Source: Patescibacteria group bacterium
GTDB taxonomy: Bacteria > Patescibacteriota > Microgenomatia > UBA1400 > UBA1449
Assembly (NCBI GenBank): GCA_050942955.1
Contig: JBMNOG010000003.1
Span: forward strand, 3,049 to 67,048
Reading direction: 5' to 3'
DNA: 64,000 nucleotides
This document shows, piece by piece, positions 12,851 through 58,713 of this stretch. Under the pieces are notes generated by a model. That model was not told where the DNA came from, did not search any database, and saw nothing but the letters and a program-made list of their open reading frames with translations. Each line of letters opens with the position of its first letter. Position 1 is the first letter of the stretch. Position numbers and translations under genes: made by a program.

Positions 12851-14950
12851 TTACACATCACACTTACTGTACCCACACTCAGGGCACGTCATACAACCCT
12901 CTCCTTTGCGCATAACCGCTCCACATTCAGGGCAGGAAGATAGGGCATCAGTTGGTTTAAAAGGACGGGGAACTTGATCAATTCTGCGTTTCACTAACGG
13001 AGTTCCCCGAAACTCAGAGGCGCCATTTGTGGTATATGCATCATTTTTCTTACTGCCGCTTTCTAAAACTACTTCTTTTCTTGAGCCAGTTACATAGACC
13101 GTTATCCCCTTACAACCAAGTTTCCAAGCAAGCATATATGCCCTTTTTACATCGTCAACTGTGGCATTTGAAGGAAAGTTAATCGTTTTGGAAATCGAGT
13201 TGTCTACAAACTGCTGGAGCGCTGCCTGCATCCGAACGTGCTGGCTTGCCGTTAAATCAGATGAAACAACAAATACTTTCCTGATTTCCTCCGGAATTTC
13301 GGCAATCCCCTGGCAACTTCCGCTTTGTCTCACTTTTTCAAAAATAAGTTCTCTTTTTTTCTTGCTAATACCACTTTTTGTAAGCGCTTTAGCAAACAAG
13401 TCGCTCTCATAGTAGAGTTGTTTAAAGTCTTCCCCGTTATCATAGTCCGCCCCCTCGTGCGTTTTCATTACATAACTTAAAGAAAAGACAGGTTCGCAGC
13501 CATACCCTTCTAAGCCAGAAACAGTTGCAATTGCGCCTGTCGGGGCAATAGTGTTCTGACAAGCATTACGGACACCATACTTTTTAATATCTTTTACTAA
13601 CGTTTTCCAATCGAGAATAGGGCGATTAAATGGTGTTTCAGACTTAACTAATGGTTTATTTATCGTAAAAACAAAACTATTCTTGTTGTAAACACTTTCA
13701 CTTATTCCGGGAAATGGCCCTCTGTCTTTAGCTAGTTCAACGCTGGCTTTAAGAGTATGAAAGCGAATAAACTCCATCACCTGACCAGCTAAGTCTTCTC
13801 CTTCTTTTGAACCATAAGGGACCCCAATTAGGTACATTAAGTCAGCCAGTCCCATAATGGAAACGCCGATTCGCCTATTTTTAAAAGCTGCTTCTTGCAG
13901 CAGAGGTACAGCTGGTACGTACTTGTTTACCTCAACCACATCGTCTAAAAAGCGGGTTATAACTTCTGTTGTTTTCTGCAACGCTTTCCAATCTATTTCA
14001 TAGTCAAACACTTTGCTGGCAAGTGATTTCCCTTTGGCTTTCTTGGGTTTTACATGTTGGCGGAGGTTAATACTGGCCATACAACAGTTTTCCCCTGGTC
14101 CCAGCCACTGCTCGCCGCAGGGATTCGTTGCTTCCAGGGTATATTGCTGCGGCACCGGGTTGTCTCGATTTGCACTGTCAAGGAAAAGGACTCCAGGTTC
14201 ACCATTATGATGGGCAAAGGTGGCAATCTTAGTAAACAAGTCTTTCGCTTTTACTTTTTTTACTACTTCTTTACTATAGGGATCGATAAGAGAAAATAGC
14301 TTATTGCCTTCCACTGCCCTCATAAACTCATCGGTGATCCCCACTGAAATATTGAAGTGCTCAACCTCTCCCTCACTTTCTTTGCAGCAGATAAAGTCTT
14401 CAATATCCGGATGGTTTATCGGCAAAACCGCCATACATGCACTTCGTCTTCCCCCACCTTGCCCAATAACCCAGAAAGCGGTGTCGTAGATTTTTAAGAA
14501 AGAAACTGCTCCGGTAGCTTTTCCTTTGCTGGTACTGATAAAAGAACCTTTATGTCTGATTCTGCCAAAAGAAAAACCAACTCCTCCACCTGATTGAAGA
14601 ATTAAGACCGCATCGCGAAGAGTTGAAAAAATACTGTGCTCCATCTTGCCTAAATCGTCTTCAATCGGCAAGACAAAGCAGTTAGCCAGTTGTCCAGAAC
14701 CTGTACCAGCATTAGCAATCGTTCTTCCATTAGGAAGAAAACGGAGTTTACATAAGTTATCAAAAAACTCTTCCCGAACATCATTGGGATCAATCCCATC
14801 CCGGTACTGATTTTCCGCTTCTGCTACCACCCGTGCCACTCGTGCAAAAATGTCTTCAACTGACTCAACAGTTTTACCATACTCATCCCGTAAACTGTAA
14901 CGTTTGATAAAGACTTCTAGAGCATTTGGGGGTAGCTTAATTTTGGGCAT
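12851..14950 (-). CDS. nrdJ: Class II ribonucleotide reductase, paralog 3. It has no ATP-cone. I trimmed the start to the internal Met MPKIK so that it abuts the nrdR stop.
   Basis: CFVLPIEDD and NPCGEQWL motifs. C-terminal [21 protein letters not shown]. The longer ORF (to 15034) overlaps nrdR by 83 nt. The ATG at 14950 leaves a 1-nt gap after the nrdR stop. Confidence 0.85.
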
Positions 14951-33499: not shown

Positions 33500-34345
33500 A
33501 TGTTGCAAACAGATTTTCTTACCCTGATCCTAATATCATTAGTTGCCGGTGTAGCTATTTATAAAATTTCCTTTTTTAGCCGAAAATCAATTGGCTATTT
33601 TTCTCTCCTGCAGATTATTTATTTAGTCATTATCCCAGGATTTGTTTATACTTTAGCATATTCTTACTTACAGTCTATTCTGAAACGACCACTCAATAGC
33701 AGCATTATTCTACCAGATAGTCTCATTATCAATATACTTCTTCTATCAATGCTTTTTTCTTACGGAGGCATTGCTGTTCACGCTGTTACCAAGATGCTTT
33801 CTGAGGTCGAGTCATTGCGCAATAAACATTCTGAGGCGTATAAGATTAACCGGTACTTTCATCTGAACTTCTCTCATAATCTCATATATAGTGGGGGAGT
33901 TGTGTCATTTATTTGCTTCACGCTTCTGGAGCTCAACCACGTTGTCCCTAATAACAATAATAACTTCATATTGGCGATGATGAAGGGATTAATCTTAGGA
34001 GGAAGCATTATCATGGCCATGTACTGGTACACTGTTTCGAAAGATGATTATATTGGCCGCTGGTCCGACCTAAAAACGGTGTTTCTCAGTATCTGGGTAG
34101 GATTTCTTACTATCCTTTATGGTGTCCAAAAAGTAGATCCTTCTATTCGTGACTACCAGCTCCTTTTACCGGCACTGTTGAGTTTTTCTCTTATAGCCCT
34201 ATTAAATATGTTTTTAGTTTTTAGAAGATTTAAAAGAGGGGGCTTTGCGCTTTACTTCAATTTTGGCAGGAAGAAAAAGAAGCTTGTAGAGGTATCAGAT
34301 AAAATCTTCTCCTCAAAAAACAATCCTCAACCAAAATTGGATTGA
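33500..34345 (+). CDS. Hypothetical multi-pass integral membrane protein.
   Basis: 281 aa with about six or seven hydrophobic helices. No recognised motif. Confidence 0.4.
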   Translation: MLQTDFLTLILISLVAGVAIYKISFFSRKSIGYFSLLQIIYLVIIPGFVYTLAYSYLQSILKRPLNSSIILPDSLIINILLLSMLFSYGGIAVHAVTKMLSEVESLRNKHSEAYKINRYFHLNFSHNLIYSGGVVSFICFTLLELNHVVPNNNNNFILAMMKGLILGGSIIMAMYWYTVSKDDYIGRWSDLKTVFLSIWVGFLTILYGVQKVDPSIRDYQLLLPALLSFSLIALLNMFLVFRRFKRGGFALYFNFGRKKKKLVEVSDKIFSSKNNPQPKLD

Positions 34346-48769: not shown

Positions 48770-49102
48770 TTAGGTAAGGGAAGACAGGATAGAACTAATA
48801 ATAGCGACAAGTAAACCAAAAATGATGGCTGCCAATAAAGAGCCAATAGCAAAACCTGGAACCAATAAACTAGCTAAATACAGGATAAGAATATTTATTA
48901 CTAACGCAAATAACCCCAAGGTAAGAATAGTAATTGGCAAAGTCAAAAGCAGAAGAATCGGTTTTACAAACGTGTTAAGAAGCCCTAAAACCAATGCAAC
49001 AATAAGAGCAGTAAGAATTGAATCTACTACTACCCCAGGAATAAGATAAGCCGCCAGAAAAACTGCAATGGTATTAATGAGCAATCTTCCAAAAAATGAC
49101 AT
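48770..49102 (-). CDS. DUF360 / phage-holin-4-like small membrane protein.
   Basis: 110 aa with four hydrophobic helices. The sequence pattern matches the Phage_holin_4_2 / YvlD family. Confidence 0.55.
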   Translation of the reverse strand: MSFFGRLLINTIAVFLAAYLIPGVVVDSILTALIVALVLGLLNTFVKPILLLLTLPITILTLGLFALVINILILYLASLLVPGFAIGSLLAAIIFGLLVAIISSILSSLT

Positions 49103-49146
49103 GGGAGGAAACTACTTCTTTGATATGAAAATCTTGACAAAATACA

Positions 49147-49174
49147 GTAATACTTCAGTAAATCTACCTAAGAA
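49147..49174 (+). promoter_or_regulatory. Phased GTAA(G/A)-heptamer direct repeats upstream of the 49219 operon. This is a weaker copy of the regional motif.
   Basis: GTAATAC (49147), GTAAATC (49158) and CTAAGAA (49168). A TTGACA lies at 49133-49138. Confidence 0.35.
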
Positions 49175-49218
49175 CTTGCTATCTTCTTACATAGCTCTAA
49201 CGCTTTCTTAATTTTCTC

Positions 49219-50433
49219 TTGGCAATCAAATCCTATAGTTTAATTATGGAGTCATACGACTATCTTATTCAGGAACTACTATCTCAAGAAGGCAGGAACA
49301 TCCGGTCAAATACGTTTTTCCTTACAGCTTACTATCCAATTAAAAAACGGGAAAAGGCTTCTCTTCAGAAACTCAAAAAGGTGGTCTTAGATTGGCTCGA
49401 CACTCACTTCCGTAGGAATAAAGATATCGGTCAATTTTCCCGAATACACCATCAGCTATTGAAAACAGTGAGTAAACATCTAGAAAACTTTGAGCAAACA
49501 GATAAGGGTCTAGCTATTTTTGCTAAATTTAGTGCTTCCAGTAGGGTTGATAAAAGAAACAGAAGCATTCCCAAAAAGCAGGTATTAGTTGTTTCGCTCT
49601 CAAGGAGGCCTCGGGAAGAGTTTAGTGTAGGTAAAACGTACGACCTAGACCAGCTCGTCTGGATCCTCAACCAAAAACTTGAGTCAGTAGTTTTAAATAT
49701 CTCCCGTAAAAAAGCTGACGTTTATATTCTTGATGAGGGAAAACTTGGATTTATCACTCAAGTAGCAAATGATTACCTCTATAGTGGCGAACGAGAATAT
49801 CTCGAAGTACACCGGCCCACCCGGTCAGATTTTGCCGTGTACGGAACTGGTTCAGACAGATTTAAGCAGAGACAAAAGGATGAAGACATGCGCTTTCTAA
49901 CAGAGTTAGGTAAGTATATAAAAAATGAACCTTTACTGAAACTTCAGTTTGAGCATCTGGTCGTCGTCTATTCACATCTTTTTGAAGAGCACATTGATGA
50001 TTTTATAAAAAATCTTACCCATTCACTCCCTTACCTTACCCCAATTACTATCCAAAAAGATATTCAAACAGAAAAGGAGTTACACCAGGAAGTTTTAAAT
50101 ACAGTCAATAAACATAAAGAGTACTCCCAAAAACAGCAATTAAAGCAGGCCAAGAAAGAGATGTATAAGTATATAGAAGACTGGCAGAGTGTTGCCAAAG
50201 CATCCAGACAAAGAAAAATTAACACCCTGTTTATTACTGCTAAAGCTAAAAGTCCTGGTTACGTACTTAACCGGGATCTGGTGTATACGCATCCAGCCGC
50301 AGGTAGCCGGCGCGTAGAAAATATTGCTCCCTGGATAGTTCACAGTGCTCTTAAGGCTGATAGCCAGATAGTGGTTTTTCCAGAGTCTCTTCCCGAAACC
50401 GAAACCCCTATTGCTGCCTCACTGCGCTATTAA
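49219..50433 (+). CDS. eRF1/Pelota-superfamily-like protein (bacterial aeRF-like) in which the GGQ motif is replaced.
   Basis: The central region AVYGTGSDRFKQRQKDEDMRFLTELGKYI...LVVVYSHLF aligns in pattern with eRF1 domain 2 (...GGQSALRFARLRxEKRHNYVRKVAE...LILAG), with GTGSD in place of GGQ. 404 aa, consistent with a three-domain architecture. Confidence 0.4.
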   Translation: MAIKSYSLIMESYDYLIQELLSQEGRNIRSNTFFLTAYYPIKKREKASLQKLKKVVLDWLDTHFRRNKDIGQFSRIHHQLLKTVSKHLENFEQTDKGLAIFAKFSASSRVDKRNRSIPKKQVLVVSLSRRPREEFSVGKTYDLDQLVWILNQKLESVVLNISRKKADVYILDEGKLGFITQVANDYLYSGEREYLEVHRPTRSDFAVYGTGSDRFKQRQKDEDMRFLTELGKYIKNEPLLKLQFEHLVVVYSHLFEEHIDDFIKNLTHSLPYLTPITIQKDIQTEKELHQEVLNTVNKHKEYSQKQQLKQAKKEMYKYIEDWQSVAKASRQRKINTLFITAKAKSPGYVLNRDLVYTHPAAGSRRVENIAPWIVHSALKADSQIVVFPESLPETETPIAASLRY

Positions 50434-50436
50434 CAT

Positions 50437-50742
50437 ATGAAACCAAAAGAACTAAGAGTCATCGGAGAAAATACACTCATTACTACTGAGATGATAAGGT
50501 TAATTAATCAAGAATTTACCCAAAAGTTGTACAGATATTTTCCTAATTATTTACAGGATATAGAAAGAGCTCGTTTAACCGTTTCGACTAGCAAAGGAAT
50601 TGGTTATGCTCTTACTCTCGATATGTGGTTTCCTGAGATAGGACATACTCAAACTGAAGTTATAAAAGACAGTTTTTACTACGCCATTTTAGATCTATGG
50701 AAAAGAATAGAGAGAATGGCTAAACAATATCCTCAAATTTAG
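50437..50742 (+). CDS. Ribosome hibernation factor (HPF/RaiA/YfiA, S30AE family)-like small protein.
   Basis: 101 aa. The pattern LRVIGENTLITTEMIRLINQEF..KL.RYF....DIERARLTVS....GYALTLDMWFPEIG.....IKDSFYYAILDLWKRIERMAKQ matches the HPF topology and spacing. It starts 4 nt after the upstream gene. Confidence 0.4.
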   Translation: MKPKELRVIGENTLITTEMIRLINQEFTQKLYRYFPNYLQDIERARLTVSTSKGIGYALTLDMWFPEIGHTQTEVIKDSFYYAILDLWKRIERMAKQYPQI

Positions 50743-50744
50743 TC

Positions 50745-51290
50745 TTACCTCAGCCACCGCCTCCCCAAAAAAAGAGACACAATTATTCCTATAATTATCA
50801 CACATTGCCAGAATATCTGGAACACAAACCAAACTGAGTCGTTATGAAAAATTTTGTGAAGAAAACGGTATTCCTCCGGAGGATTGCGGTGCTTTTGAGC
50901 AAACTGTTCTGAAATCCAGTATTGGATTTCAGCGAAACTACGCACTGTCCAAAAAACTGATACAAAAAGTAAAAACAGAACCCAGTCCTTAAGAAAAAGG
51001 GTAGCTGCGGACACAAAAACCCAAAACAATCCAAAAACAATAGCGTCTCCCCAAACAAAGGCACCAATAAGGTTAAACACTCCGGCACTGCCAAAAGCAT
51101 TTTGCTTTCCTTTAGTTTCTCGTAAACCCCAGACAAATCCCGCAAGAGAAATAAACCCATAAATAGTGATGATAACTGATTGCCAAAGAAGCATTGGTTT
51201 ATTATAACTCAGGGAAGTAAGAGATCGGATTAACACCAAAACCAAAAAGGAGGTCGGAAGATCAGGGATTGTCGTAAGTATTCCATCCAC
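50745..51290 (-). CDS. Hypothetical integral membrane protein.
   Basis: 181 aa with four or five hydrophobic helices rich in Trp and Phe. No recognised motif. Confidence 0.4.
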   Translation of the reverse strand: MDGILTTIPDLPTSFLVLVLIRSLTSLSYNKPMLLWQSVIITIYGFISLAGFVWGLRETKGKQNAFGSAGVFNLIGAFVWGDAIVFGLFWVFVSAATLFLKDWVLFLLFVSVFWTVRSFAEIQYWISEQFAQKHRNPPEEYRFLHKIFHNDSVWFVFQIFWQCVIIIGIIVSLFLGRRWLR

Positions 51291-51624
51291 AACTATTAAG
51301 CCTGTTAGTACTCTCTAAATTTAGGTACTATGGTATATTAGTTGATCCTCCAACCTCTCAAAGTGTGGGTGTGTAATACTCCTTTTCTCATGACTATGTC
51401 TGCAAATCATGTCCACTAAAAACAGATACCAAGCTTTTCTTATTAGTAAAAAAAACTTATGGGAAACAATGAAGTGAGCATTTTGATTCATCTCCCGTAA
51501 TGCTAGTTAGAGAATGTAAAAATAATGTTAGAAATAAGTATTAAAACAGTCAGAGAGTAATTAGAGATAGGAAAGCTTAGTTTGCTTGACTTCAAGTAGT
51601 AAATAAAGTACTTTTTGAACATTC

Positions 51625-51654
51625 TGTAAGAAGTCTGTAAAAATTGTGTAAGAA
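51625..51654 (+). promoter_or_regulatory. Triple 11-bp-phased TGTAAGAA direct repeat (putative response-regulator binding site).
   Basis: TGTAAGAA (51625), TGTAAAAA (51636) and TGTAAGAA (51647). The motif ends 2 nt before the annotated ATG at 51657. The true start of that gene may be the downstream Met at 51750. Confidence 0.55.
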
Positions 51655-51656
51655 AC

Positions 51657-52208
51657 ATGGAGCCCCAAGTTTCACCTTTCCCTTCTCTGTACCAGTCTAA
51701 TCTTTTTACATTAGTCTTGGATCAACAGGAAGACAAGACGAAGATTACCATGAAGATCCATGATTCTCTAGTTAATACGAGAGAGTTGCCCGGAACTCTG
51801 GCTATACTTGAAGAAAACCTACCTTCGATTTTTAGAACAACGTGTTTTAATGATGACCATGTTTCTTTTCTTAAAGAGGTAAGGCATACTGAGGTCGGAC
51901 ATCTTTTCGAACATATCATACTGGCTTATTTATGCGAAAACACAGTTGTTGAAAAAAACTGCAGTATTACGTACAAAGGAGAAACAAGTTGGAATTGGTT
52001 AAAGGATGATTTTGGAACATACCACATTACCTTAAACGTCGGCAAAAAAGATGCCAATGTTTTTTTTTCTTCGCTAGAGAAAAGTATTATCCTTTTAGAT
52101 ACCATTATGCGGGAGGGTAAACAAAAAGAGGTTAATATCAATTCTTCGTTTATGTTCAGGCAGTTCGAGGAAAACTACCATACTCCCCCTGCCCACCCGT
52201 TGTTTTAA
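51657..52208 (+). CDS. Hypothetical protein. The start may be at the internal Met at 51750.
   Basis: 183-aa ORF. No recognised domain. The phased repeat lies directly upstream. Confidence 0.4.
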   Translation: MEPQVSPFPSLYQSNLFTLVLDQQEDKTKITMKIHDSLVNTRELPGTLAILEENLPSIFRTTCFNDDHVSFLKEVRHTEVGHLFEHIILAYLCENTVVEKNCSITYKGETSWNWLKDDFGTYHITLNVGKKDANVFFSSLEKSIILLDTIMREGKQKEVNINSSFMFRQFEENYHTPPAHPLF

Positions 52209-52222
52209 AAGTACATTATAGG

Positions 52223-52498
52223 CTAAACCTCTTCTTTTTCTAGTTTCTGCTTTGCTTTATCCAATTCTTTTACTATTCTTCTCCTGCTTTTTTCTTTGAC
52301 CTCCTCAGCTTTCTCCTGGGCTTCTTTTAACTTCTCTTCGCCTTTTTCCCGCCATTCGTCCATTTTTTTCTGAACCTTTTTGCGCATGTCTCTATCAGCC
52401 ATTACTACCGCAACTGCACCCACAATTGCTCCGATAATTCCAGCCGTAAGCGCACTCATCCCTCTTCTACTATCTCTATCATCTACCATAGAAATCAC
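52223..52498 (-). CDS. YtxH-like (DUF948) stress-associated membrane-anchored coiled-coil protein.
   Basis: N-terminal transmembrane helix (ALTAGIIGAIVGAVAVVMA) followed by a Lys/Glu-rich coiled coil. Confidence 0.5.
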   Translation of the reverse strand: MISMVDDRDSRRGMSALTAGIIGAIVGAVAVVMADRDMRKKVQKKMDEWREKGEEKLKEAQEKAEEVKEKSRRRIVKELDKAKQKLEKEEV

Positions 52499-52722
52499 CT
52501 CCTTTTAGAACCACCTAACATATTTACTAGAAAACTTAAAACACCGACCCTAACTTTAGCTTGCCACCTTTGAACATTATGTGCCGTTTCTTTAACATCC
52601 TGAACTGTTTCATTAATAGATTTTAGTACTGTAACTATAAAATAGGCTGTAACAATAGCGGCTAAAATAATAATCCAGATAGCCACTGAGGCTGAGTAAT
52701 AAAATAATTCTTGAGCTGTCAT
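52495..52722 (-). CDS. Small DUF948-like membrane protein.
   Basis: 75 aa. One transmembrane helix plus an amphipathic helix. It overlaps the downstream gene by 4 nt. Confidence 0.4.
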   Translation of the reverse strand: MTAQELFYYSASVAIWIIILAAIVTAYFIVTVLKSINETVQDVKETAHNVQRWQAKVRVGVLSFLVNMLGGSKRR

Positions 52723-52757
52723 ATATTTTTAGCTTACCAAATGCTATCTTAAGATTT

Positions 52758-52785
52758 TGTGAAGCTGGTAAGAAATCGGCAAGAA
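52758..52785 (+). promoter_or_regulatory. Phased G(T/C)AAGAA repeats that overlap the -35 region upstream of a TATAAT at 52807-52812.
   Basis: GGTAAGAA (52767-52774) and GCAAGAA (52779-52785) are 11 bp apart, with a degenerate TGTGAAG copy upstream. The ATG follows at 52842. Confidence 0.5.
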
Positions 52786-52841
52786 AGTTGATATAAAAGA
52801 CTGATGCTATAATCGCAACAGAAGGGTAAGTTACTAATACT

Positions 52842-53561
52842 ATGCAGAAAAAAGATTCCCCATACCTAACATCTCAAGCACCATTGAAGCGACAGAGTGA
52901 TTTTATTGACTATACTATACATGAATTAAAAAATTCTCTTACAGTTATTAGTTCTTTTAGTCAGCTTTTAAAAAAGAGTCTAGAGAAACAGGGTGAACCC
53001 AAAATGCTTCTAAGTGTCTCCAAGATTGAGTCACAGATAAAAATCATGGCTCAACAACTTGATAGCTATGCTGACGCCCTAAAACTTGATTTTGGCAATC
53101 TTGACTTTGTTGAGGAAGCTTTTTCTTTGGATGAAGCTGTGACTGAGGTTGTTGTTGATTTTAAGAAAAGTAATCCTACCTACGTTTTTAGTATCATAGG
53201 AAGCACTAACAGACTTGTTCGAGCAGATAGATATCGAATAAAGCAGGTAGTAACCACTCTCCTTAATCAAGTAATAGCGTGTTCTTTAGAAAACAAAAAG
53301 GTAGTTATAAAACTAGCAACATCATCCAGCAAAGCAAAGGTTTCAGTGTGTGTATTCGAAAGAGTTTCCCCGAGCGACTACCAAATCCTAGGTGAAAAGT
53401 TTGCTCAAGCAAAAACTCAACCACTATCACCAGAAACAGATGTGCAGTTATTCCTGGCACATTCTGTCATCGAAAAATACAAGGGAAAACTCACTCTAAG
53501 TAGCAAAGAAAAAGGAGAAATTATCTTCTCCTTTTCCCTACCAATGTTAGTAACTGACTAA
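52842..53561 (+). CDS. Histidine-kinase-like protein. It has a DHp H-box but a degenerate ATP-binding (CA) domain.
   Basis: H-box IHELKNSLTVI. An N-box remnant LLNQVI. No recognisable G1 (DxGxG) or G2 (GxGxG) box. No transmembrane segment. Confidence 0.5.
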   Translation: MQKKDSPYLTSQAPLKRQSDFIDYTIHELKNSLTVISSFSQLLKKSLEKQGEPKMLLSVSKIESQIKIMAQQLDSYADALKLDFGNLDFVEEAFSLDEAVTEVVVDFKKSNPTYVFSIIGSTNRLVRADRYRIKQVVTTLLNQVIACSLENKKVVIKLATSSSKAKVSVCVFERVSPSDYQILGEKFAQAKTQPLSPETDVQLFLAHSVIEKYKGKLTLSSKEKGEIIFSFSLPMLVTD

Positions 53562-53569
53562 ACAGGAAT

Positions 53570-53830
53570 TCAAGTTCTTTGCAACCTTCTTCCAATCCAG
53601 ATAAGTAAAACTGCACCGGCTGTAGCTACTAGAATACTGTAAAGATTAAAACCTGTAGCTCCGGGTTGACCGAATATATTCATGATAAGTCCACCTACTA
53701 CTGCTCCCAAAACCCCAAAAACAATATCCATAAGGATTCCCTGCGAGGAGTTTGTACCCATAATTACAGACGCAAGCCACCCAGCCACTAATCCTAAAAG
53801 GGCTAAAATTAAAATTGACATTTCGTTCAC
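53570..53830 (-). CDS. GlsB/YeaQ/YmgE-family (transglycosylase-associated) stress membrane protein.
   Basis: 86 aa. The LGLVAGWLASVIMG...FGVLGAVVGGLI pattern is typical of this family. RBS AAAGGAGGTGAACGAA-ATG. Confidence 0.75.
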   Translation of the reverse strand: MNEMSILILALLGLVAGWLASVIMGTNSSQGILMDIVFGVLGAVVGGLIMNIFGQPGATGFNLYSILVATAGAVLLIWIGRRLQRT

Positions 53831-53875
53831 CTCCTTTTCGGATTGCTTTTACTACAATCAAACTACTGCCTAGCA

Positions 53876-53946
53876 ATAAGAACCAAAAGTGAAATGTGTA
53901 AGAATCAGGTAAGACAAACAGAGGTATAAGAAAAACCCGATAAGAA
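53876..53946 (+). promoter_or_regulatory. Cluster of (A/G)TAAGA(A/C) heptamers between the GlsB-like gene and the OmpR-type response-regulator gene.
   Basis: ATAAGAA 53876, GTAAGAA 53898 and GTAAGAC 53909 share an 11-bp phase. Further copies lie at 53926 and 53940. Confidence 0.5.
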
Positions 53947-53954
53947 CTTCAGGA

Positions 53955-54626
53955 CTACTCTTTTATGACATACCCAAAACCCCTAACTGACTTAATAAGC
54001 TCCTTATCAAAGCCAGCATCGATTTTTTTCCGAAGATAGCCAATGTAGACATCAACTACTCGAGTTTCAATATCAGGAGAGTAAAGCCAGATACGGTTTA
54101 AGATAGCCTCTCTTGTTAAAACCCTGCCCTTGTTTGCCATTAAATATTCAAGTAGTTTGAATTCCTGAGGGGTTAGCTTAATTTTCCTATCTCCCCGTTT
54201 TACTTCCAGAGTTTTCTTATCAAGCACAAGATCAGATACCTTGAGTTTAGCATTTTGGGTAGCGTGATCCCGCAGCCTAGCTCTAATGCGGGCAATGAGC
54301 TCATCTGTTTCAAAGGGTTTGGCAATATAGTCGTCAGCTCCAAGATTAAGCCCTTTTACCACATCGGATGTAGCTCCTTTAGCTGTTAACATGATAATTG
54401 GAAGATCGGGAAATAGTTTCTTTGTCTCGCTGCACACTGTTTCTCCACCCATAGTTGGCAACCCTAAATCCAAAATAACCAAATCCGGCTGGGTTTTTTT
54501 AATGACCTTTAAGGCAGCTACACCATCGGCCACATCTTTAACAGAGTACCCATTGTCAAGCAGAAGGTCTTTTAGGTACTGTCTCAGGTCTGAATCGTCC
54601 TCAACTACAACTATTGTATGAACCAT
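53955..54626 (-). CDS. OmpR/PhoB-family response regulator (receiver plus winged-helix DNA-binding domain).
   Basis: The receiver region is VVEDDSDLRQ...DLVILDLGLP...ITAK. The C-terminal trans_reg_C region is LTPQEFKLLEYLMANKGRVLTREAILNRIW...VDVYIGYLRKKID. Confidence 0.9.
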   Translation of the reverse strand: MVHTIVVVEDDSDLRQYLKDLLLDNGYSVKDVADGVAALKVIKKTQPDLVILDLGLPTMGGETVCSETKKLFPDLPIIMLTAKGATSDVVKGLNLGADDYIAKPFETDELIARIRARLRDHATQNAKLKVSDLVLDKKTLEVKRGDRKIKLTPQEFKLLEYLMANKGRVLTREAILNRIWLYSPDIETRVVDVYIGYLRKKIDAGFDKELIKSVRGFGYVIKE

Positions 54627-54698
54627 ACACGTTTATTACTTTAATCATACTCATTAATTATGAATAAAATATGATCAAGTAATATCCTTTAACTTACT

Positions 54699-55064
54699 TT
54701 AGATATATCTTTCAACAATTTTTTCAAGCTTTTCTATATCAAACGGTTTACATAAATAATCATCGGCCCCGATTCTTTGTGTTATCTGTTCCGTGTCTTT
54801 ACTGGCAGAAATAATAACAATGGGTATATCCTTGGTTTTCTGGTCCTGCTTCAAGTGGCGCGTGATCTCTTCCCCACCTAAATTCGGCATCCAAAGGTCA
54901 AGTAAAATTAAATTTGGCCTAAGCTTTCTAACTTCTTCAAAGATGTGATCGGTACGAGTCATGCTCACCACCTGGTACGCCTTGTTTTCAAGTACAATCT
55001 TGACAATATCGGCAATACCTTCATCGTCATCACATACTAAAATTTTTTTCTCGCTGGTATTCAT
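54699..55064 (-). CDS. Single-domain CheY-like response regulator.
   Basis: 121 aa. ILVCDDDEGIAD...LILLDLWMPNLGGEE...ISASKD receiver motifs. Confidence 0.85.
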   Translation of the reverse strand: MNTSEKKILVCDDDEGIADIVKIVLENKAYQVVSMTRTDHIFEEVRKLRPNLILLDLWMPNLGGEEITRHLKQDQKTKDIPIVIISASKDTEQITQRIGADDYLCKPFDIEKLEKIVERYI

Positions 55065-55066
55065 AA

Positions 55067-57229
55067 TTAAGAAATACTTGGATAAACAGGGATAGTAAAG
55101 AAAAAGGTTGAACCTTCACCTACTTCACTCTTTACCCATATTTTCCCCCCATGTCTTGAAATGATTTCTTGAGAAATATACAATCCAATACCTAAGCCGG
55201 AAAACTTTTTTGATGGGTCATCTACTCTATAAAAGCGTTCAAAAATCTGTTCCTGGTGTTGCTTATCAATCCCAATACCAAAATCTGTAATTCCTACTTT
55301 TACAAATCCACCTTCACAGGTAACTGAAACAATTACTTTATCAGCATTAGGAGAGTATTTAATAGCATTTACCAGGAGGTTGGTAAAGACCTGCTCTAGT
55401 CTCTCTTTATCTCCAGTAACCTTCTGACAAGCCTTGCCCTGACATAGAATCACATGGTGACTATCCATAAGTTGGACACTGTCTATACCCTCTCTAACCA
55501 GTTCATCAAAATCAAACTCAGTGGTATTGAGCTGCAGCTTGCCTGATTGAATTTTTGAAACATCTAAAAGGTCAGTAATAAGACTATTAAGTCTATCTAT
55601 GTAAAGACTCATCTTTTTTAAGTAAAGTTTAACCTTTTCGTTATCCCAATCTTTTACCATCCTTTCCAAAATCTGGTTATAACCTTTTATGCTGGTTAGA
55701 GGTGTTTTAAGTTCATGGCTGGCTATACTGATGAATTCATCTTTACGTTGTTCAAGTTCTTTGCGGGCAGTAACATCATGGAAGTAAACAGAAATACCGT
55801 TTTCGGACGGGTAAACCCGGCTTTCATACCATTTCTGCTGAGGTTCAAAAAAGGCTTCAAGCGTTACCACCTCACCTTCTTCCATAGCATTTTTGTACGC
55901 CGGATACCAAACACTCTTCTCAAAGTCCGGCCAGACCTCAAAAATTGATTTTCCTAGATGTTCCTCCTTTACTTTTTTGTTAATGCGTTCAGCTTCTTTG
56001 TTAATGTAGATATACCGCCAATTTTGGTCCAATGCCACAAACCCATCGGAGATACTATCAAGAACATGAGAGATTCTCTTGTTAGTTTTTTCCAGTTCAA
56101 GTTTGATCTTCTTCTGTTCTGAAATATCAATAGCAAAACCTACCTCAAGCTGTCTGGCCTCATCCAACATTTTGCCCCCAATTAAAACAGGAATTTGAAC
56201 TCCATCCTTGCGAACATACTCTTTTTCTTTGGGCGAGTAATAGCCATATTTTCTTAACTGCGCCGCCATCTCTTTGTCCTGATCCAGATATTTCTTGGGT
56301 GTAATTTTATCTAGACGAACCTTCCCGAGCTGCATATCCTCCCGGGTATACCCTACCATATCTAAAAAGGCATCGTTAGCTTCGATAAGCTTGCCTTTAG
56401 TGGTAGCCAAAACTATGCCGATAATGCTCGACTGTACCAGTGCTTTAAAACGTTTTTCACTTTCTGCAAGCTGTCTTTCAGCTACCTTTTTAGCTAAAAC
56501 ATCCCGAAACACTAGCACTGTCCCAATCATCTTCCCTCTATCGTCTCTGATGGGTGAACCGTTGTTTTCTATGGGTATTTCATTACCGTTTCTGGAAACA
56601 AGAAGCATATGATTGGTTAAACCAATATTACAGCTCTCTCGAAGGATAGTTTCAGCAGGATTTTCTAATACTTCTTTCGTCTCTTCATTGATAATCTTGA
56701 GTACATTACATAAATTTCGCCCCATGCACTCATTAATTTTCCATCCAGTTAACCTCTGGGCTTCTTTATTCATAAAGGCTACCCTGCCCTGCCTATCCGT
56801 AGCTACTACTGCATCAGCAATACTGGAAAGAGTTACTTCAAACCATTTTCTCTGTCTCACTTCTTCTTCCCGAGATTGATCCAGTTTAGTCACTAAAGCC
56901 ACTATAGCTACTGCTGGCAGTGCATAAGACATAACCTGAAACATACGTGAAGGGTTCATGTTTAAAGGCTGTTTTCCCGTGATAAGAAAAATGTAGTCCA
57001 CTATGACAGCTATAAACACAGTTATAAATATTCCCCATTTAAAACGGCCGTAAAGCGAGTTAAGAATAATCAAAAAAAGCAGTAGAAGAAACGTAATGCT
57101 ATTGCCAACAAAGGTGTTGAAAAAAAGCTTTGCGTAGATTACTAACCCAGCTACGACCAATGCTTGAAGCGCATACACAACAAACACAAGAGTCTTACTG
57201 TATGAAAGTCTTTTAGTTAGAATAACCAT
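55067..57229 (-). CDS. Membrane-bound sensor histidine kinase with PAS domains. I trimmed the start to the internal Met MVILTK.
   Basis: N-terminal multi-transmembrane region. Two or three PAS-like segments. HisKA H-box SHELKTPLTSIKGY. The HATPase_c region has N, G1 and G2 boxes (NLLVNAIKYS, GITDFGIGI, GLGIGLYISQEIISRHGG). With the longer ORF start, a TATAAT would lie only 5 nt upstream. Confidence 0.85.
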   Translation of the reverse strand: MVILTKRLSYSKTLVFVVYALQALVVAGLVIYAKLFFNTFVGNSITFLLLLFLIILNSLYGRFKWGIFITVFIAVIVDYIFLITGKQPLNMNPSRMFQVMSYALPAVAIVALVTKLDQSREEEVRQRKWFEVTLSSIADAVVATDRQGRVAFMNKEAQRLTGWKINECMGRNLCNVLKIINEETKEVLENPAETILRESCNIGLTNHMLLVSRNGNEIPIENNGSPIRDDRGKMIGTVLVFRDVLAKKVAERQLAESEKRFKALVQSSIIGIVLATTKGKLIEANDAFLDMVGYTREDMQLGKVRLDKITPKKYLDQDKEMAAQLRKYGYYSPKEKEYVRKDGVQIPVLIGGKMLDEARQLEVGFAIDISEQKKIKLELEKTNKRISHVLDSISDGFVALDQNWRYIYINKEAERINKKVKEEHLGKSIFEVWPDFEKSVWYPAYKNAMEEGEVVTLEAFFEPQQKWYESRVYPSENGISVYFHDVTARKELEQRKDEFISIASHELKTPLTSIKGYNQILERMVKDWDNEKVKLYLKKMSLYIDRLNSLITDLLDVSKIQSGKLQLNTTEFDFDELVREGIDSVQLMDSHHVILCQGKACQKVTGDKERLEQVFTNLLVNAIKYSPNADKVIVSVTCEGGFVKVGITDFGIGIDKQHQEQIFERFYRVDDPSKKFSGLGIGLYISQEIISRHGGKIWVKSEVGEGSTFFFTIPVYPSIS

Positions 57230-57310
57230 AGTGAGTTTTAGATTGCTACGTTTTGCAAGCAAAGATATTATAGGAGATTTAGATTGATAAATGAAAGATT
57301 TTTTGCTGAA

Positions 57311-57339
57311 TTATTACGCTTTTCTTACTTATTTCTTAC
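57311..57339 (-). promoter_or_regulatory. Triple 11-bp-phased GTAAGAA / GTAATAA direct repeat upstream of the histidine-kinase and response-regulator operon, on its coding strand.
   Basis: The plus strand reads TTATTAC (57311), TTCTTAC (57322) and TTCTTAC (57333). On the minus strand a TATAAT lies at 57272-57267. Confidence 0.55.
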
Positions 57340-57420
57340 AGAAGATACAGAAACAACCCATAAAAGAAGGGTACTTTAACCACTTAAAGGAACGATCAAA
57401 CTAGGCTCACTTAATAAACC

Positions 57421-57444
57421 CCACCACCTTACTTAAGGTGGTGG
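57421..57444 (-). terminator. Hairpin downstream of the DUF378 gene.
   Basis: CCACCACC-ttacttaa-GGTGGTGG 8-bp GC stem. Confidence 0.45.
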
Positions 57445-57465
57445 AACACTAAAATAACACAATGA

Positions 57466-57669
57466 TTATCTCGTAGAGCGTTGCGTAGCTCTGAATAAAA
57501 TATAAAGAGCTGAGATCCCAACTAAAATATAGATAATCCTTGCCAGGATAGTAGCCCCAAAAATTGCGGCGACTAGATCAAGTCCAAAGAGACCCACTAG
57601 CCCCCAGTTAATACCTCCAATGATGAGGAGAATTAAGAATAACCAATCAAATCCGGAATATCCGTTCAT
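57466..57669 (-). CDS. DUF378-family small membrane protein. I trimmed the start to MNGYSG.
   Basis: The DWLFLILLIIGGINWGLVGLFGLDLVAAIFG pattern is DUF378. A strong RBS AAAGGAGGTAT-ATG sits at the trimmed start. Confidence 0.75.
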   Translation of the reverse strand: MNGYSGFDWLFLILLIIGGINWGLVGLFGLDLVAAIFGATILARIIYILVGISALYILFRATQRSTR

Positions 57670-57694
57670 ATACCTCCTTTCTGTTCTTGTATTG

Positions 57695-57791
57695 TAAGCA
57701 GGCTCAAGTAAAAAACATGTAAAGAAGCAGTAATAATTCAATAAAGGCAGGCCTTACAGATATTTGTTGTTTTTCTTACTAGTTTCTTTAC
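57695..57791. promoter_or_regulatory. Divergent intergenic region with phased GTAA(G/A)(G/A)AA heptamers in both orientations.
   Basis: Plus strand: GTAAG 57695, GTAAA 57708, GTAAAGAA 57719 and GTAATAA 57730. Minus orientation: TTCTTAC 57773 and TTCTTTAC 57784. Confidence 0.5.
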
Positions 57792-57795
57792 AAGT

Positions 57796-58338
57796 TTGAT
57801 TACTATCTCCTTGCTCAATACATACACTATGAAAAAAGTAGTTTTTAACAGCAAGAATTCAAACAAAAAACAGAAGCAAAATTATGAGACCTCTAAAAAC
57901 ACACAAGGTGAGCAAGAAACTTCAGAAAGACTAGAAAAATTAGCGAGGCAATCGAAAAGAATCATCTTCAAAGTTAATACTGTTCCATTCCTCACTTTTT
58001 TTAGTCCTACCAGAGTGGTAATTGATGAGGAAAAAGTGACTGTGGTTAATACAACTTTATTCGGCCGGGTTGCCCGAAAGGTATTTCCAATACTTTTTTC
58101 CCACTTACTTTCAGCAAGAACCGCTATAGAATTCTATTTTTTTGCAAGGTTAGAACTAGAAATTAAAGGCATGGAAACTAACCCTGAGTCAGTAGGTCCA
58201 CTAAAAAAAGATGATGCAGCAAAGGCCAGAAAAGTTATTAACGGTCTAATTGTAGTAACCAGAAATAAAGTTGACTTATCACCACTTAGCACAAAGGAGG
58301 TACTGGAAAAATTAGAAGAAATTGGACGCACAGAGTAG
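57796..58338 (+). CDS. Hypothetical protein.
   Basis: 180-aa ORF downstream of the phased repeats. Lys-rich N-terminus. No recognised domain. Confidence 0.35.
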   Translation: MITISLLNTYTMKKVVFNSKNSNKKQKQNYETSKNTQGEQETSERLEKLARQSKRIIFKVNTVPFLTFFSPTRVVIDEEKVTVVNTTLFGRVARKVFPILFSHLLSARTAIEFYFFARLELEIKGMETNPESVGPLKKDDAAKARKVINGLIVVTRNKVDLSPLSTKEVLEKLEEIGRTE

Positions 58339-58503
58339 TATTTCACCTCAACCTCTCTAAACACACAATTCTTTACAAATCATTTCAAAAGCAACAAGGC
58401 ATATTCTTACCCAACTGTTACCTTACCCTAATGCGACCCTAACATAACAGAAGTAACGTTAAGCTTGATTATATAGATAGTTTTGGAAAGGAGGTGGATA
58501 GCC

Positions 58504-58713
58504 GTGGCACAGAGAGGCAGAGGCTGGCATGGTGACCCGGAAGGACACGCCCGCGCAGGGAAAAAAGGTGGCCTGGCAACAAAGAGAAACCAGGGTGAAG
58601 ATTTCTATGAGAAAATTGGCCGAAAAGGTGGTAAAGCTAGTCCAACTAAGTTTGAAGAGGGGTCAGAACGAGCTAGAGAAGCAGGAAGAAAAGGCGGTAA
58701 AAGTTCTCACTAA
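58504..58713 (+). CDS. KGG-repeat general stress protein (YciG/con-10-like). I moved the start to the GTG downstream of the RBS.
   Basis: Repeated GKKGG / GRKGGK motifs (AGKKGGLAT, GRKGGKASP, GRKGGKSSH). The ORF tracker's TTG at 58483 lies inside the AGGAGGTG RBS. Confidence 0.65.
   Translation: MAQRGRGWHGDPEGHARAGKKGGLATKRNQGEDFYEKIGRKGGKASPTKFEEGSERAREAGRKGGKSSH

What the first reader, a model, noticed from the sequence alone, without database searches (positions are those of the whole stretch)
49103..58482. Recurring cis-element: 11-bp-phased GTAAGAA direct repeats in six or more promoter regions around a two-component system (putative OmpR-family stress regulon)
Heptamers matching (T)GTAAGAA occur as two to four direct repeats with exact 11-bp spacing, one helical turn apart.

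Instances:
- 51625-51654, upstream of the 51657 gene.
- 52767-52785, overlapping the -35 region upstream of a TATAAT, before the degenerate kinase-like gene at 52842.
- 53876-53915, between the GlsB-like and OmpR-type response-regulator genes.
- 57311-57339, on the coding strand upstream of the histidine-kinase, CheY-like and OmpR-type operon (autoregulation).
- 57695-57736 and 57773-57791, in both orientations, in the divergent DUF378 / 57796 promoter region.
- A weaker copy at 49147-49174, upstream of the eRF1-like / HPF-like operon.

Tandem heptamers with 11-bp periodicity are the classic architecture of OmpR/PhoB-family response-regulator sites, for example PhoB boxes. The downstream genes are stress-type: GlsB/YmgE, YtxH/DUF948, DUF378, KGG-repeat and HPF-like. 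The sequence encodes a compact, locally wired stress regulon in which the motif and the regulator are co-located. I found this by reading the intergenic regions. It is not a known named motif.
Basis: seen in the sequence. Interest (0 to 1): 0.72.

Follow-up and report, generated by a model that had tools for sequence, protein, structure and literature searches.

The report
Response-regulator binding boxes of a CPR stress regulon
The repeated GTAAGAA heptamers spaced exactly 11 bp apart are real and conserved across many ultra-small (Patescibacteria/CPR) bacteria, and they are very probably the DNA docking sites of the neighbouring OmpR-type response regulator, which controls its own signalling genes and a set of small stress proteins.

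Summary

**In the window.** GTAAGAA-N4-GTAAGAA (up to 2 mismatches) occurs 10 times, against 1.3 expected. All 10 lie within 9 kb around the only OmpR-type regulator gene. A weight-matrix scan finds 9 sites in 64 kb, 8 of them in 51.5-58.4 kb. One is new, upstream of the KGG gene. The claimed weak copy at 49147-49174 fails.

**Taxonomy.** The contig is Patescibacteria. The regulator has more than 100 orthologue clusters at 65-82% identity across Microgenomates and Parcubacteria, all with an invariant recognition helix.

**Independent loci.** In 79 independent orthologous loci:
- the 11-bp phasing peak recurs (94 pairs against 4-25 at other spacings);
- 82% of sites lie in the 14% of DNA that is non-coding;
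- site density is about 50-100 times higher in the 100 bp upstream of the regulator gene.

Unrelated AT-rich loci show no peak.

**Two promoter classes.**
- Signalling genes (regulator, kinases) carry forward arrays 14 bp upstream of a -35 box.
- Effector genes (Transgly_assoc, KGG, DUF378, cell-wall enzymes) carry inverted arrays that end about 10 bp before the -10 box.

**Classification.** This is a new member of a known kind, an OmpR/PhoB-type direct-repeat operator closest to the WalR/VicR box. Binding and the sign of regulation are inferred, not shown.

The parts
57298..57341 (-). Site D: forward array of 3 strong units plus 1 weak unit (CTGTAAGAAAT AAGTAAGAAAA GCGTAATAATT CAGCAAAAAAT), upstream of the kinase/CheY/regulator operon
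   Evidence: The heptamer of the third unit (GTAATAA, 57317-57311) is followed by 14 bp, then -35-like TTTCAT (57296-57291), an 18-bp spacer, then TATAAT (57272-57267). Regulator promoters of relatives have the same layout. A positional orthologue is at L083 7268-7300.
57267..57296 (-). Inferred core promoter of the kinase operon: TTTCAT, 18-bp spacer, TATAAT
   Evidence: Read from the sequence. Not found by the strict consensus scan.
55067..57262 (-). Sensor histidine kinase: DUF4118 membrane domain, PAS domains, HisKA, HATPase_c. Probable ATG start at 57229.
   Evidence: NCBIfam best hit is WalK at 276 bits against a cut-off of 725.
54699..55064 (-). Single-domain CheY-like receiver
   Evidence: Conserved next to the kinase in L083, L086 and L089.
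53955..54626 (-). OmpR/PhoB-family response regulator, the proposed binder of the motif
   Evidence: Response_reg plus Trans_reg_C. It is the only winged-helix regulator of this type in the window. 120 listed orthologues at 65-100% identity share an invariant recognition helix ETRVVDVY(I/M)GYLRKK.
53936..53953 (-). Terminator-like hairpin directly after the regulator gene; it overlaps two unphased TAAGAA copies
53876..53915 (+). Site C: array inverted relative to the Transgly_assoc gene. Units are at 53909-15 and 53898-904, a degenerate third unit, and a fourth at 53876-82. The -10-like TAGTTT is at 53865-53860, 10 bp beyond the last unit.
   Evidence: It fits the class-O layout exactly: extra unit at +22 and TAnnnT at +39.
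53570..53830 (-). Transgly_assoc (GlsB/YmgE-like) small membrane protein; probable ATG at 53821
   Evidence: Orthologues carry inverted sites in 15 of 16 cases.
52766..52787 (+). Site B: two units (TGGTAAGAAAT CGGCAAGAAAG). It is forward for the degenerate kinase gene, and the proximal unit overlaps the -35 position of TATAAT 52808-52813. It is inverted for the divergent DUF948/YtxH-like operon.
   Evidence: Positional orthologue at L083 12580-12612.
52842..53561 (+). Degenerate cytoplasmic histidine kinase. The H-box (IHELKNSL) is kept; no DxGxG or GxGxG ATP-lid boxes are present.
52223..52722 (-). Two small genes, DUF948-like and YtxH-like (both below Pfam cut-offs); possible inverted-class targets of site B
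   Evidence: The promoter layout fits only approximately.
51624..51656 (+). Site A: three forward units (CTGTAAGAAGT CTGTAAAAATT GTGTAAGAAAC) that abut the annotated ATG of the 51657 ORF
   Evidence: The orthologue in L083 has a 3-unit forward site 45 bp upstream of its start. The true start here may be the ATG at 51750.
51514..51535 (+). Site A0: weaker additional array (ATGTAAAAATA ATGTTAGAAAT, followed by GTATTAA)
51657..52208 (+). Protein with a cyanophycin-synthase-N-like domain; a conserved forward-class target
   Evidence: Pfam PF18921 at 27.9 bits against a cut-off of 27. Cluster orientation is 5 forward, 0 inverted.
57706..57738 (+). Site E: three units (G at 57708/57719/57730), inverted relative to the DUF378 gene. 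The -10-like TACAAT (57696-57691) lies 11 bp beyond the last unit.
57466..57669 (-). DUF378 small membrane protein (ATG at 57669, Shine-Dalgarno GGAGGT at 57677-57672)
57771..57792 (-). Site F: two units (TGTAAAGAAAC TAGTAAGAAAA), inverted relative to the 57829 gene. The -10-like TACTAT (57801-57806) lies 9-10 bp beyond the last unit.
57829..58338 (+). Hypothetical protein with no family match
58402..58423 (-). Site H (new): two units (AGGTAACAGTT GGGTAAGAATA), inverted relative to the KGG gene. TAACGT lies at +39 (58454-58459).
   Evidence: KGG orthologues carry inverted sites in 12 of 12 cases.
58483..58713 (+). KGG-repeat (GsiB-like) stress protein; probable GTG start at 58504
49184..49191 (-). 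Single perfect TGTAAGAA with a TTCTTAA 21 bp further on (49205-49211). Doubtful site between the holin-like gene and the 49246 gene.
   Evidence: The region's best dimer score is 10.5, below the threshold of 14.

Best explanation
The heptamer arrays, consensus (T/A)GTAAGAA(A/T) repeated every 11 bp in 2-4 copies, are the operator of the OmpR/PhoB-family response regulator encoded at 53955-54626.

**Proposed mechanism (inferred).** After phosphorylation by the PAS kinase, regulator protomers bind head-to-tail, one per heptamer, on one face of the helix, as described for this family. The single-domain CheY-like receiver and the ATP-lid-less kinase paralogue may modulate the phosphorylation.

**Forward class.** Arrays read towards the gene and sit upstream of a recognisable -35 box. 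This class serves the signalling genes: the kinase/CheY/regulator operon, the degenerate kinase and the cyanophycin-synthase-N-like gene. It gives autoregulation.

**Inverted class.** Arrays cover roughly -62 to -23 of promoters that have a -10 box but no -35 box. This class serves small stress-type and envelope proteins: Transgly_assoc, DUF378, KGG, a hypothetical protein, and probably DUF948/YtxH. Here the regulator most likely substitutes for the -35 contact and activates transcription.

**Shown:** the motif, its phasing, its conservation, its link to the regulator gene, and the promoter layouts.
**Inferred:** that this regulator is the binder, that binding depends on phosphorylation, and the sign of regulation at each class.
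For: 1. Window statistics show a sharp 11-bp phasing peak and clustering around the two-component system.
2. There is only one OmpR-type winged-helix regulator in the window.
3. The regulator belongs to a large Patescibacteria orthogroup whose DNA-recognition helix is invariant.
4. The untrained consensus test on 79 independent orthologous loci (718 kb) gives 94 pairs at 11 bp, against 4-25 at other spacings, 38 at 22 bp and 29 at 33 bp.
5. 403 kb of unrelated low-GC loci carrying generic OmpR-type regulators show no peak: 5 pairs at 11 bp.
6. In the independent loci, 82% of sites fall in the 14% of DNA that is non-coding.
7. Site density is 5.4 per kb in the 100 bp upstream of the regulator start, against 0.05-0.1 per kb background. 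All 45 sites within 250 bp upstream are on the regulator's strand.
8. The layout is fixed. Forward class: dimer, 14 bp, TTGAnn, 17-18 bp, TATAAT. Inverted class: extra unit at +22 and TAnnnT at +39 in 23 of 51.
9. Five window sites have positional orthologues in the closest relative, L083, whose regulator is 82% identical.
10. Arrays of 2-4 units with 4-bp spacers that reach and replace the -35 box match published OmpR/PhoB-family activation complexes (PMC11825685).
Against: - There is no binding or expression data; everything rests on comparative sequence analysis.
- Only 35 of 65 relatives have an above-threshold dimer upstream of the regulator gene. Many of the rest show sub-threshold copies or a lone heptamer in the promoter spacer.
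- The strict sigma-70 consensus scan finds none of the inferred promoters, so the -35/-10 assignments are hand-read.
- The distance from array to -10 differs between promoters of the forward class: 29-32 bp at the degenerate kinase, 44-45 bp at the regulator and kinase promoters.
- Site A abuts the annotated start codon, so either the start or the promoter assignment is wrong.
- Related loci are not phylogenetically independent, so the p-values overstate the number of independent events.
Confidence: 0.8

Rival explanations
1. The arrays are bound by a different protein, for example the Crp-like regulator that often sits divergent from the kinase in relatives, or an unidentified factor. Linkage to the OmpR-type regulator gene would then reflect only membership of a shared stress island.
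For: No binding data exist. A Crp-family gene is a recurrent neighbour in relatives: 7 loci, 6 of them divergent from a kinase gene.
Against: Tandem direct repeats at 11 bp with a 4-bp spacer are the signature of OmpR/PhoB winged-helix regulators, not of Crp-type dimers, which use inverted repeats (established knowledge). The window has no Crp-like gene in the region. The sites peak sharply at a fixed distance upstream of the OmpR-type gene in every lineage, all on its strand. The regulator's recognition helix is invariant, as is the motif.
Confidence: 0.08
2. The heptamers are promoter elements read by RNA polymerase itself, either by an alternative sigma factor or as phased A-tract/UP-like curvature, with no dedicated regulator.
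For: The motif is A-rich, and 11-bp phasing of A-tracts bends DNA. A lone heptamer often sits inside the -35/-10 spacer of regulator promoters in relatives.
Against: The invariant positions are G1, T2, A3 and A4 rather than an A-tract. Arrays occur in both orientations and in 2-4 copies, which does not fit a sigma-factor box. AT-rich control loci lack the phasing peak. The elements are confined to the neighbourhood of one regulator gene.
Confidence: 0.05
3. Chance clustering of an AT-rich heptamer in AT-rich intergenic DNA.
For: The genome is 40% GC and TAAGAA-like words are common: 76 TAAGAA in the window.
Against: No shuffle out of 100 reaches the observed count. The spacing peak is specific to 11, 22 and 33 bp. 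It was replicated in 79 independent loci.
Confidence: 0.01

Closest known systems
WalR/VicR (YycF) box of Firmicutes: TGTWAH-N5-TGTWAH, refined in S. mutans to TGTWAHA-N4-TGTWAHA (PMC4168254)
   Same: Direct heptamer repeats with an 11-bp period and a TGTAA-type core followed by A. The binder is an OmpR/PhoB-family regulator paired with a PAS kinase. In relatives the targets include cell-wall enzymes: Peptidase_S11, GH18 and penicillin-binding-protein neighbours.
   Different: Position 6 is G here, which the WalR consensus excludes (H = not G), and the leading T is only weakly conserved. The regulator and kinase fail the NCBIfam YycF and WalK cut-offs (176 against 340; 276 against 725). The core targets are small stress proteins, and arrays often have 3-4 units.
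PhoB pho box (CTGTCATA(A/T)A(A/T)CTGTCA...) and actinobacterial PhoP PHO boxes (11-nt direct repeat units; PMC2275107, PMC11825685)
   Same: 7-bp core plus a 4-bp A/T-rich spacer. Tandem dimers in arrays of 2, 4 or 6 protomers overlap and replace the -35 box. The regulator controls its own operon.
   Different: The core sequence differs (GTAAGAA against TGTCA or GTTCA). PhoB equivalog score is 208 against a cut-off of 296. No phosphate-regulon genes are among the targets. At effector promoters the array is inverted relative to the pho-box orientation.
MtrA of Actinobacteria (best NCBIfam and PDB match)
   Same: Highest sequence similarity: 216 bits; PDB 2gwr at E=4e-45. MtrA also links envelope and osmotic-stress genes (own knowledge).
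   Different: Below the equivalog cut-off of 300. No MtrB or LpqB partners. The repeat sequence differs.
General stress regulons run by sigma factors (Bacillus sigma-B, E. coli RpoS)
   Same: Overlapping cargo. KGG/GsiB-like, YtxH, DUF948, YflT, BON and Transgly_assoc/YmgE-type proteins are typical sigma-B or RpoS general stress proteins (own knowledge, not tested here).
   Different: Control here is inferred to be by a two-component response regulator binding tandem repeats, not by an alternative sigma factor.

Membership tests
OmpR/PhoB-family response regulator with its operator | Receiver domain plus C-terminal winged-helix Trans_reg_C domain | tested here: met
   PF00072 E=2.5e-30 and PF00486 E=4.5e-28. 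PDB homologues include MtrA, DrrD, PhoP and PrrA.
OmpR/PhoB-family response regulator with its operator | Operator built of tandem direct repeats about one helical turn apart (6-7 bp core plus 4-5 bp spacer) | tested here: met
   Sharp spacing peak at 11, 22 and 33 bp in the window and in 86 related loci.
OmpR/PhoB-family response regulator with its operator | The regulator physically binds the repeats, with binding enhanced by phosphorylation | not testable with these tools
   Needs EMSA, footprinting or DAP-seq.
OmpR/PhoB-family response regulator with its operator | Cognate histidine kinase encoded nearby; operator upstream of the regulator's own gene or operon | tested here: met
   Kinase/CheY/regulator operon with site D upstream. 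45 of 45 sites upstream of orthologous regulator genes are on the gene's strand.
WalRK (YycFG) | Regulator and kinase reach the NCBIfam equivalog scores | tested here: not met
   YycF 176 against 340; WalK 276 against 725.
WalRK (YycFG) | Box TGTWAH-N5-TGTWAH | tested here: inconclusive
   TGTAAG-N5-TGTAAG matches 5 of 6 positions per half-site. Position 6 is G in 113 of 176 units, and G is excluded by H (PMC4168254).
PhoBR phosphate regulon | PhoB equivalog score, pho box CTGTCAT, and pst/pho target genes | tested here: not met
   208 against 296 bits. The core sequence differs. No phosphate genes are among the targets.
MtrAB | MtrA equivalog score and an MtrB/LpqB neighbourhood | tested here: not met
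   216 against 300 bits. The neighbouring kinase is a PAS or GAF type, and MtrB scores 147 against 450.

The most novel reading that the evidence does not exclude
One OmpR-family regulator, conserved with an invariant recognition helix across Microgenomates and Parcubacteria, is the master switch of a Patescibacteria general stress and envelope response. In this reading it fills the role that alternative sigma factors play elsewhere.

It would use an orientation code. Forward arrays upstream of a normal -35 box serve its own signalling genes. Inverted arrays that replace the -35 box serve effectors. A lone heptamer in the promoter spacer would provide feedback. The two orientations would then mean different polymerase contacts, or opposite signs of regulation.
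Probability: 0.35. Interest if true: 0.75.

Novelty: new member of a known kind. Interest (0 to 1): 0.6.

Why it matters
Regulatory networks of Patescibacteria are essentially uncharted. In the held library, four full-text searches for the motif or for a CPR, Patescibacteria or Saccharibacteria two-component regulon found no description of it.

This finding gives a concrete, testable regulator-operator pair that is conserved across much of the radiation. It comes with a predicted regulon of small stress proteins (Transgly_assoc, KGG, DUF378), cell-envelope enzymes and ion pumps. It offers a handle for reading metatranscriptomes of uncultured ultra-small bacteria and for building reporters.

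The strong orientation split between signalling and effector genes (30:1 against 11:50) is unusual for this regulator family. It could show how head-to-tail dimers contact RNA polymerase from either direction.

Tried and rejected
- **Genome-contig scan with the full regulator.** Only 36-45% identical, unrelated OmpR-type regulators came back. They were reused as negative controls.
- **Unbiased 7-mer self-phasing ranking within the single window.** GTAAGAA, GTAAAAA and TAAGAAA are the commonest exact words repeated at 11 bp, and the 48-60 kb bins are enriched. A-rich words and codon periodicity make this test noisy, so it is not decisive on its own.
- **Strict sigma-70 and terminator scan.** It found none of the promoters inferred by hand. 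It gave only a terminator-like hairpin after the regulator gene.
- **Pairwise alignment of orthologous promoters, window against L083.** The register slips, so the alignments are uninformative apart from showing the heptamers as conserved islands.
- **Four reverse GTAAGAA copies inside ORF 33500-34345.** No repeat family was found. They were treated as chance or coding.
- **Literature on orientation-dependent activation and repression by B. subtilis PhoP.** It could not be retrieved, so it is kept only as a recollection.
- **Claimed site at 49147-49174.** Rejected as background.

Full report
**Observation**

The region was read directly and the heptamers were put in register. Exact 11-bp phasing holds at the following G positions:
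- 51626/51637/51648 (+)
- 52768/52779 (+)
- 53898/53909 (+), with an in-register ATAAGAA at 53876
- 57339/57328/57317 (-)
- 57708/57719/57730 (+)
- 57790/57779 (-), if the first unit is read as TAAAGAA

With GTAAGAA at up to 1 mismatch, the same-strand spacing histogram of the whole 64-kb window has 7 pairs at 11 bp, 5 at 22 bp and 0-3 elsewhere. Every 11-bp pair lies in 51.5-57.4 kb.

The pattern GTAAGAANNNNGTAAGAA at up to 2 mismatches matches 10 times, against 1.34 +/- 1.24 in dinucleotide-preserving shuffles. No shuffle reaches 10.

A weight-matrix scan finds 9 sites in the window. Eight are in 51.5-58.4 kb and the ninth is a weak coding hit at 14255. Per intergenic region, the best dimer score is 17.7-25.3 for the motif regions and at most 9.1 for 20 others.

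The claimed weak copy at 49147-49174 scores 3.7 and is rejected. That region holds only one good unit, at 49184-49191 on the minus strand. Two sites were added: 58402-58423 (-), upstream of the KGG gene, and 51514-51535 (+).

**Genes**

Pfam confirms the following:
- an OmpR-type regulator (53955-54626)
- a CheY-like receiver
- a DUF4118/PAS histidine kinase
- Transgly_assoc
- DUF378
- KGG
- a kinase paralogue with weak HisKA and HATPase_c matches

The kinase paralogue keeps the H-box but has no G1/G2 ATP-lid boxes. YtxH and DUF948 are below the Pfam cut-offs. The 'eRF1-like' and 'HPF-like' labels rest on sub-threshold hits only: baeRF_family5 E=0.1 and Ribosomal_S30AE E=0.022. The regulator is the only winged-helix regulator of this type in the window.

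**Origin and relatives**

The regulator is identical to a protein that NCBI names from a Patescibacteria MAG. It has 120 listed relatives at 65-100% identity from Levybacteria, Pacebacteria, Microgenomates and Parcubacteria records. Its DNA-binding domain, including ETRVVDVY(I/M)GYLRKK, is almost invariant among them.

No named NCBIfam equivalog is reached. The scores are MtrA 216 against 300, PhoB 208 against 296 and YycF 176 against 340.

A first genome scan was wasted on generic OmpR-type regulators. Those loci then served as controls.

**Conservation test**

Seven orthologous loci fetched by exact protein look-up each show the 11-bp peak.

A metagenome scan with the family's DNA-binding-domain consensus gave 79 further independent loci, 718 kb in total.
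- With the untrained consensus, these have 94 pairs at 11 bp, 38 at 22 bp, 29 at 33 bp and 4-25 at other spacings.
- With a matrix trained only on the first eight sources, they have 108 dimers at 11 bp, against 9-18 at 8-14 bp.
- 82% of sites fall in the 14% of DNA that is non-coding.
- 403 kb of unrelated low-GC loci show no peak.

**Link to the regulator**

Site density is 5.4 per kb in the 100 bp upstream of the regulator's start codon and 1.2 per kb in the next 100 bp. Background is 0.05-0.1 per kb. All 45 sites within 250 bp upstream are on the regulator's strand.

In the window, and in the closest relative L083, the regulator is the last gene of a kinase/CheY/regulator operon, and the array sits upstream of the kinase. 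Five window sites have positional orthologues in L083.

**Promoter anatomy**

*Regulator and kinase promoters.* The layout is: dimer, 14 bp, TTGAnn, 17-18 bp, TATAAT. The window's site D follows it exactly, with TTTCAT at 57296-57291 and TATAAT at 57272-57267. In relatives a lone heptamer, forward or reversed, often sits in the -35/-10 spacer.

*Degenerate-kinase promoter.* The proximal unit overlaps the -35 position, 29 bp from its G to TATAAT 52808.

*Effector promoters.* The array is inverted. In gene orientation it reads TTCTTnC-N4-TTCTTAC, a degenerate unit, then TCTTAA/T in register at +22, 10 bp, then TAnnnT at +39. Each of the last two features occurs in 23 of 51. The window's Transgly_assoc, DUF378, 57829 and KGG promoters fit this layout within 1 bp.

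**Orientation rule**

Genes downstream of sites were clustered by BLASTP:

| Gene cluster | Forward | Inverted |
|---|---|---|
| Regulator | 53 | 3 |
| Kinases | 25 | 9 |
| Cyanophycin-synthase-N-like | 5 | 0 |
| Transgly_assoc | 1 | 15 |
| KGG | 0 | 12 |
| GH18 | 0 | 10 |
| Crp-like | 0 | 7 |

Some inverted counts simply mirror a divergent forward-class neighbour: 6 of the 7 Crp-like genes are divergent from a kinase gene.

Counting only sites that have a single downstream gene, signalling genes are 30:1 and all other genes are 11:50, Fisher p = 5e-14. Most of the 11 forward cases are low-scoring coding hits. Relatedness of the loci inflates this p-value, but the split is seen across lineages.

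**Mechanism**

The best explanation is that phosphorylated regulator protomers occupy successive heptamers head-to-tail.
- At signalling genes they sit upstream of a usable -35 box, giving autoregulation.
- At effector promoters, which lack a -35 box, an array spans about -62 to -23. It probably substitutes for the -35 contact, as tandem PhoP dimers do in published activation complexes (PMC11825685).

The sign of regulation at either class, and the meaning of the inversion, are not determined. I recall that B. subtilis PhoP uses opposite strands at activated and repressed promoters. I could not retrieve a source for that, so it is a lead only.

**Comparison with known systems**

The box is one base away from the WalR/VicR consensus TGTWAHA-N4-TGTWAHA and is built like a pho box (PMC4168254). 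However, the proteins fail the WalR, WalK, PhoB and MtrA equivalog thresholds, and the cargo differs.

In relatives the predicted regulon also includes Peptidase_S11, GH18, a GT4 glycosyltransferase, a GDE_C-like hydrolase, a P-type ATPase and a BON protein. This is a mix of envelope and general-stress functions. From my own knowledge, that mix resembles sigma-B or RpoS cargo.

Four full-text searches found no description of this motif or regulon in Patescibacteria.

**Verdict**

This is a real, conserved cis-element. It is very probably the operator of a Patescibacteria-wide OmpR-family regulator, making it a new member of a well-known kind. It has an unexplained and statistically strong orientation split between signalling and effector genes.

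Noticed in passing
L090, L091, L097, L106, L122, L123, L125, L129, L131, L137, L169 (regulator promoters); reversed form in L128, L143, L149, L152, L156, L157, L171: Many orthologous regulator promoters carry a single extra heptamer inside the -35/-10 spacer. It is either forward (TTGAnn-N3/4-GTAAGAA-N6-TATAAT) or reversed (TTGTGTGTTCTTAC-N9-TATAAT), and it sometimes occurs without any upstream dimer. It could be a feedback site. The window's own kinase promoter lacks it.
   Followed up: partly
window 49246-50742: This gene pair has only sub-threshold matches: a bacterial eRF1-like family (baeRF_family5, E=0.1) and the ribosome hibernation factor family (Ribosomal_S30AE, E=0.022 over nearly the whole profile). 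It may be a ribosome rescue and hibernation pair. It is not clearly under the motif.
   Followed up: partly
window 52842-53561: This cytoplasmic kinase paralogue keeps the phospho-acceptor His box but lacks both glycine-rich ATP-lid boxes. It is itself a conserved target of the motif, and L083 has a HisKA-only version. That suggests a regulator-induced phosphatase or phosphotransfer brake.
   Followed up: partly
window 51657-52208; L083 13127-13624: A protein with a cyanophycin-synthase-N-terminal-like domain is a conserved forward-class target (5 of 5). That groups it with the signalling genes rather than the effectors. In the window the array abuts its annotated ATG, so the real start may be the ATG at 51750.
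   Followed up: partly
window 53936-53953 (-): A terminator-like hairpin directly after the regulator gene overlaps the two unphased TAAGAA copies at 53926 and 53940. These are therefore probably not regulator sites.
   Followed up: no
window 57421-57444: A perfect 8-bp-stem hairpin (CCACCACC TTACTTAA GGTGGTGG) lies downstream of the DUF378 gene, between it and the kinase-operon promoter. It is probably a terminator or insulator.
   Followed up: no
window 48770-49102 (-); L088 18876-18919: A Phage_holin_4_2 family membrane protein neighbours the motif cluster in the window. In the Levybacteria relative L088 it sits next to a 4-unit array, so it may belong to the regulon in some lineages.
   Followed up: no
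window 33516, 33661, 33757, 34104 (-): Four exact reverse GTAAGAA copies lie inside one 281-aa ORF (33500-34345), unphased. No DNA repeat family was detected.
   Followed up: partly
L084 6022-6054 and 7595-7627: Two near-identical 3-unit arrays (CAACAAGAAAG CAGTAAGA.TT .GGTAAGAA) lie 1.5 kb apart on opposite strands. They flank a DUF192/YflT/KGG gene block in a relative.
   Followed up: no
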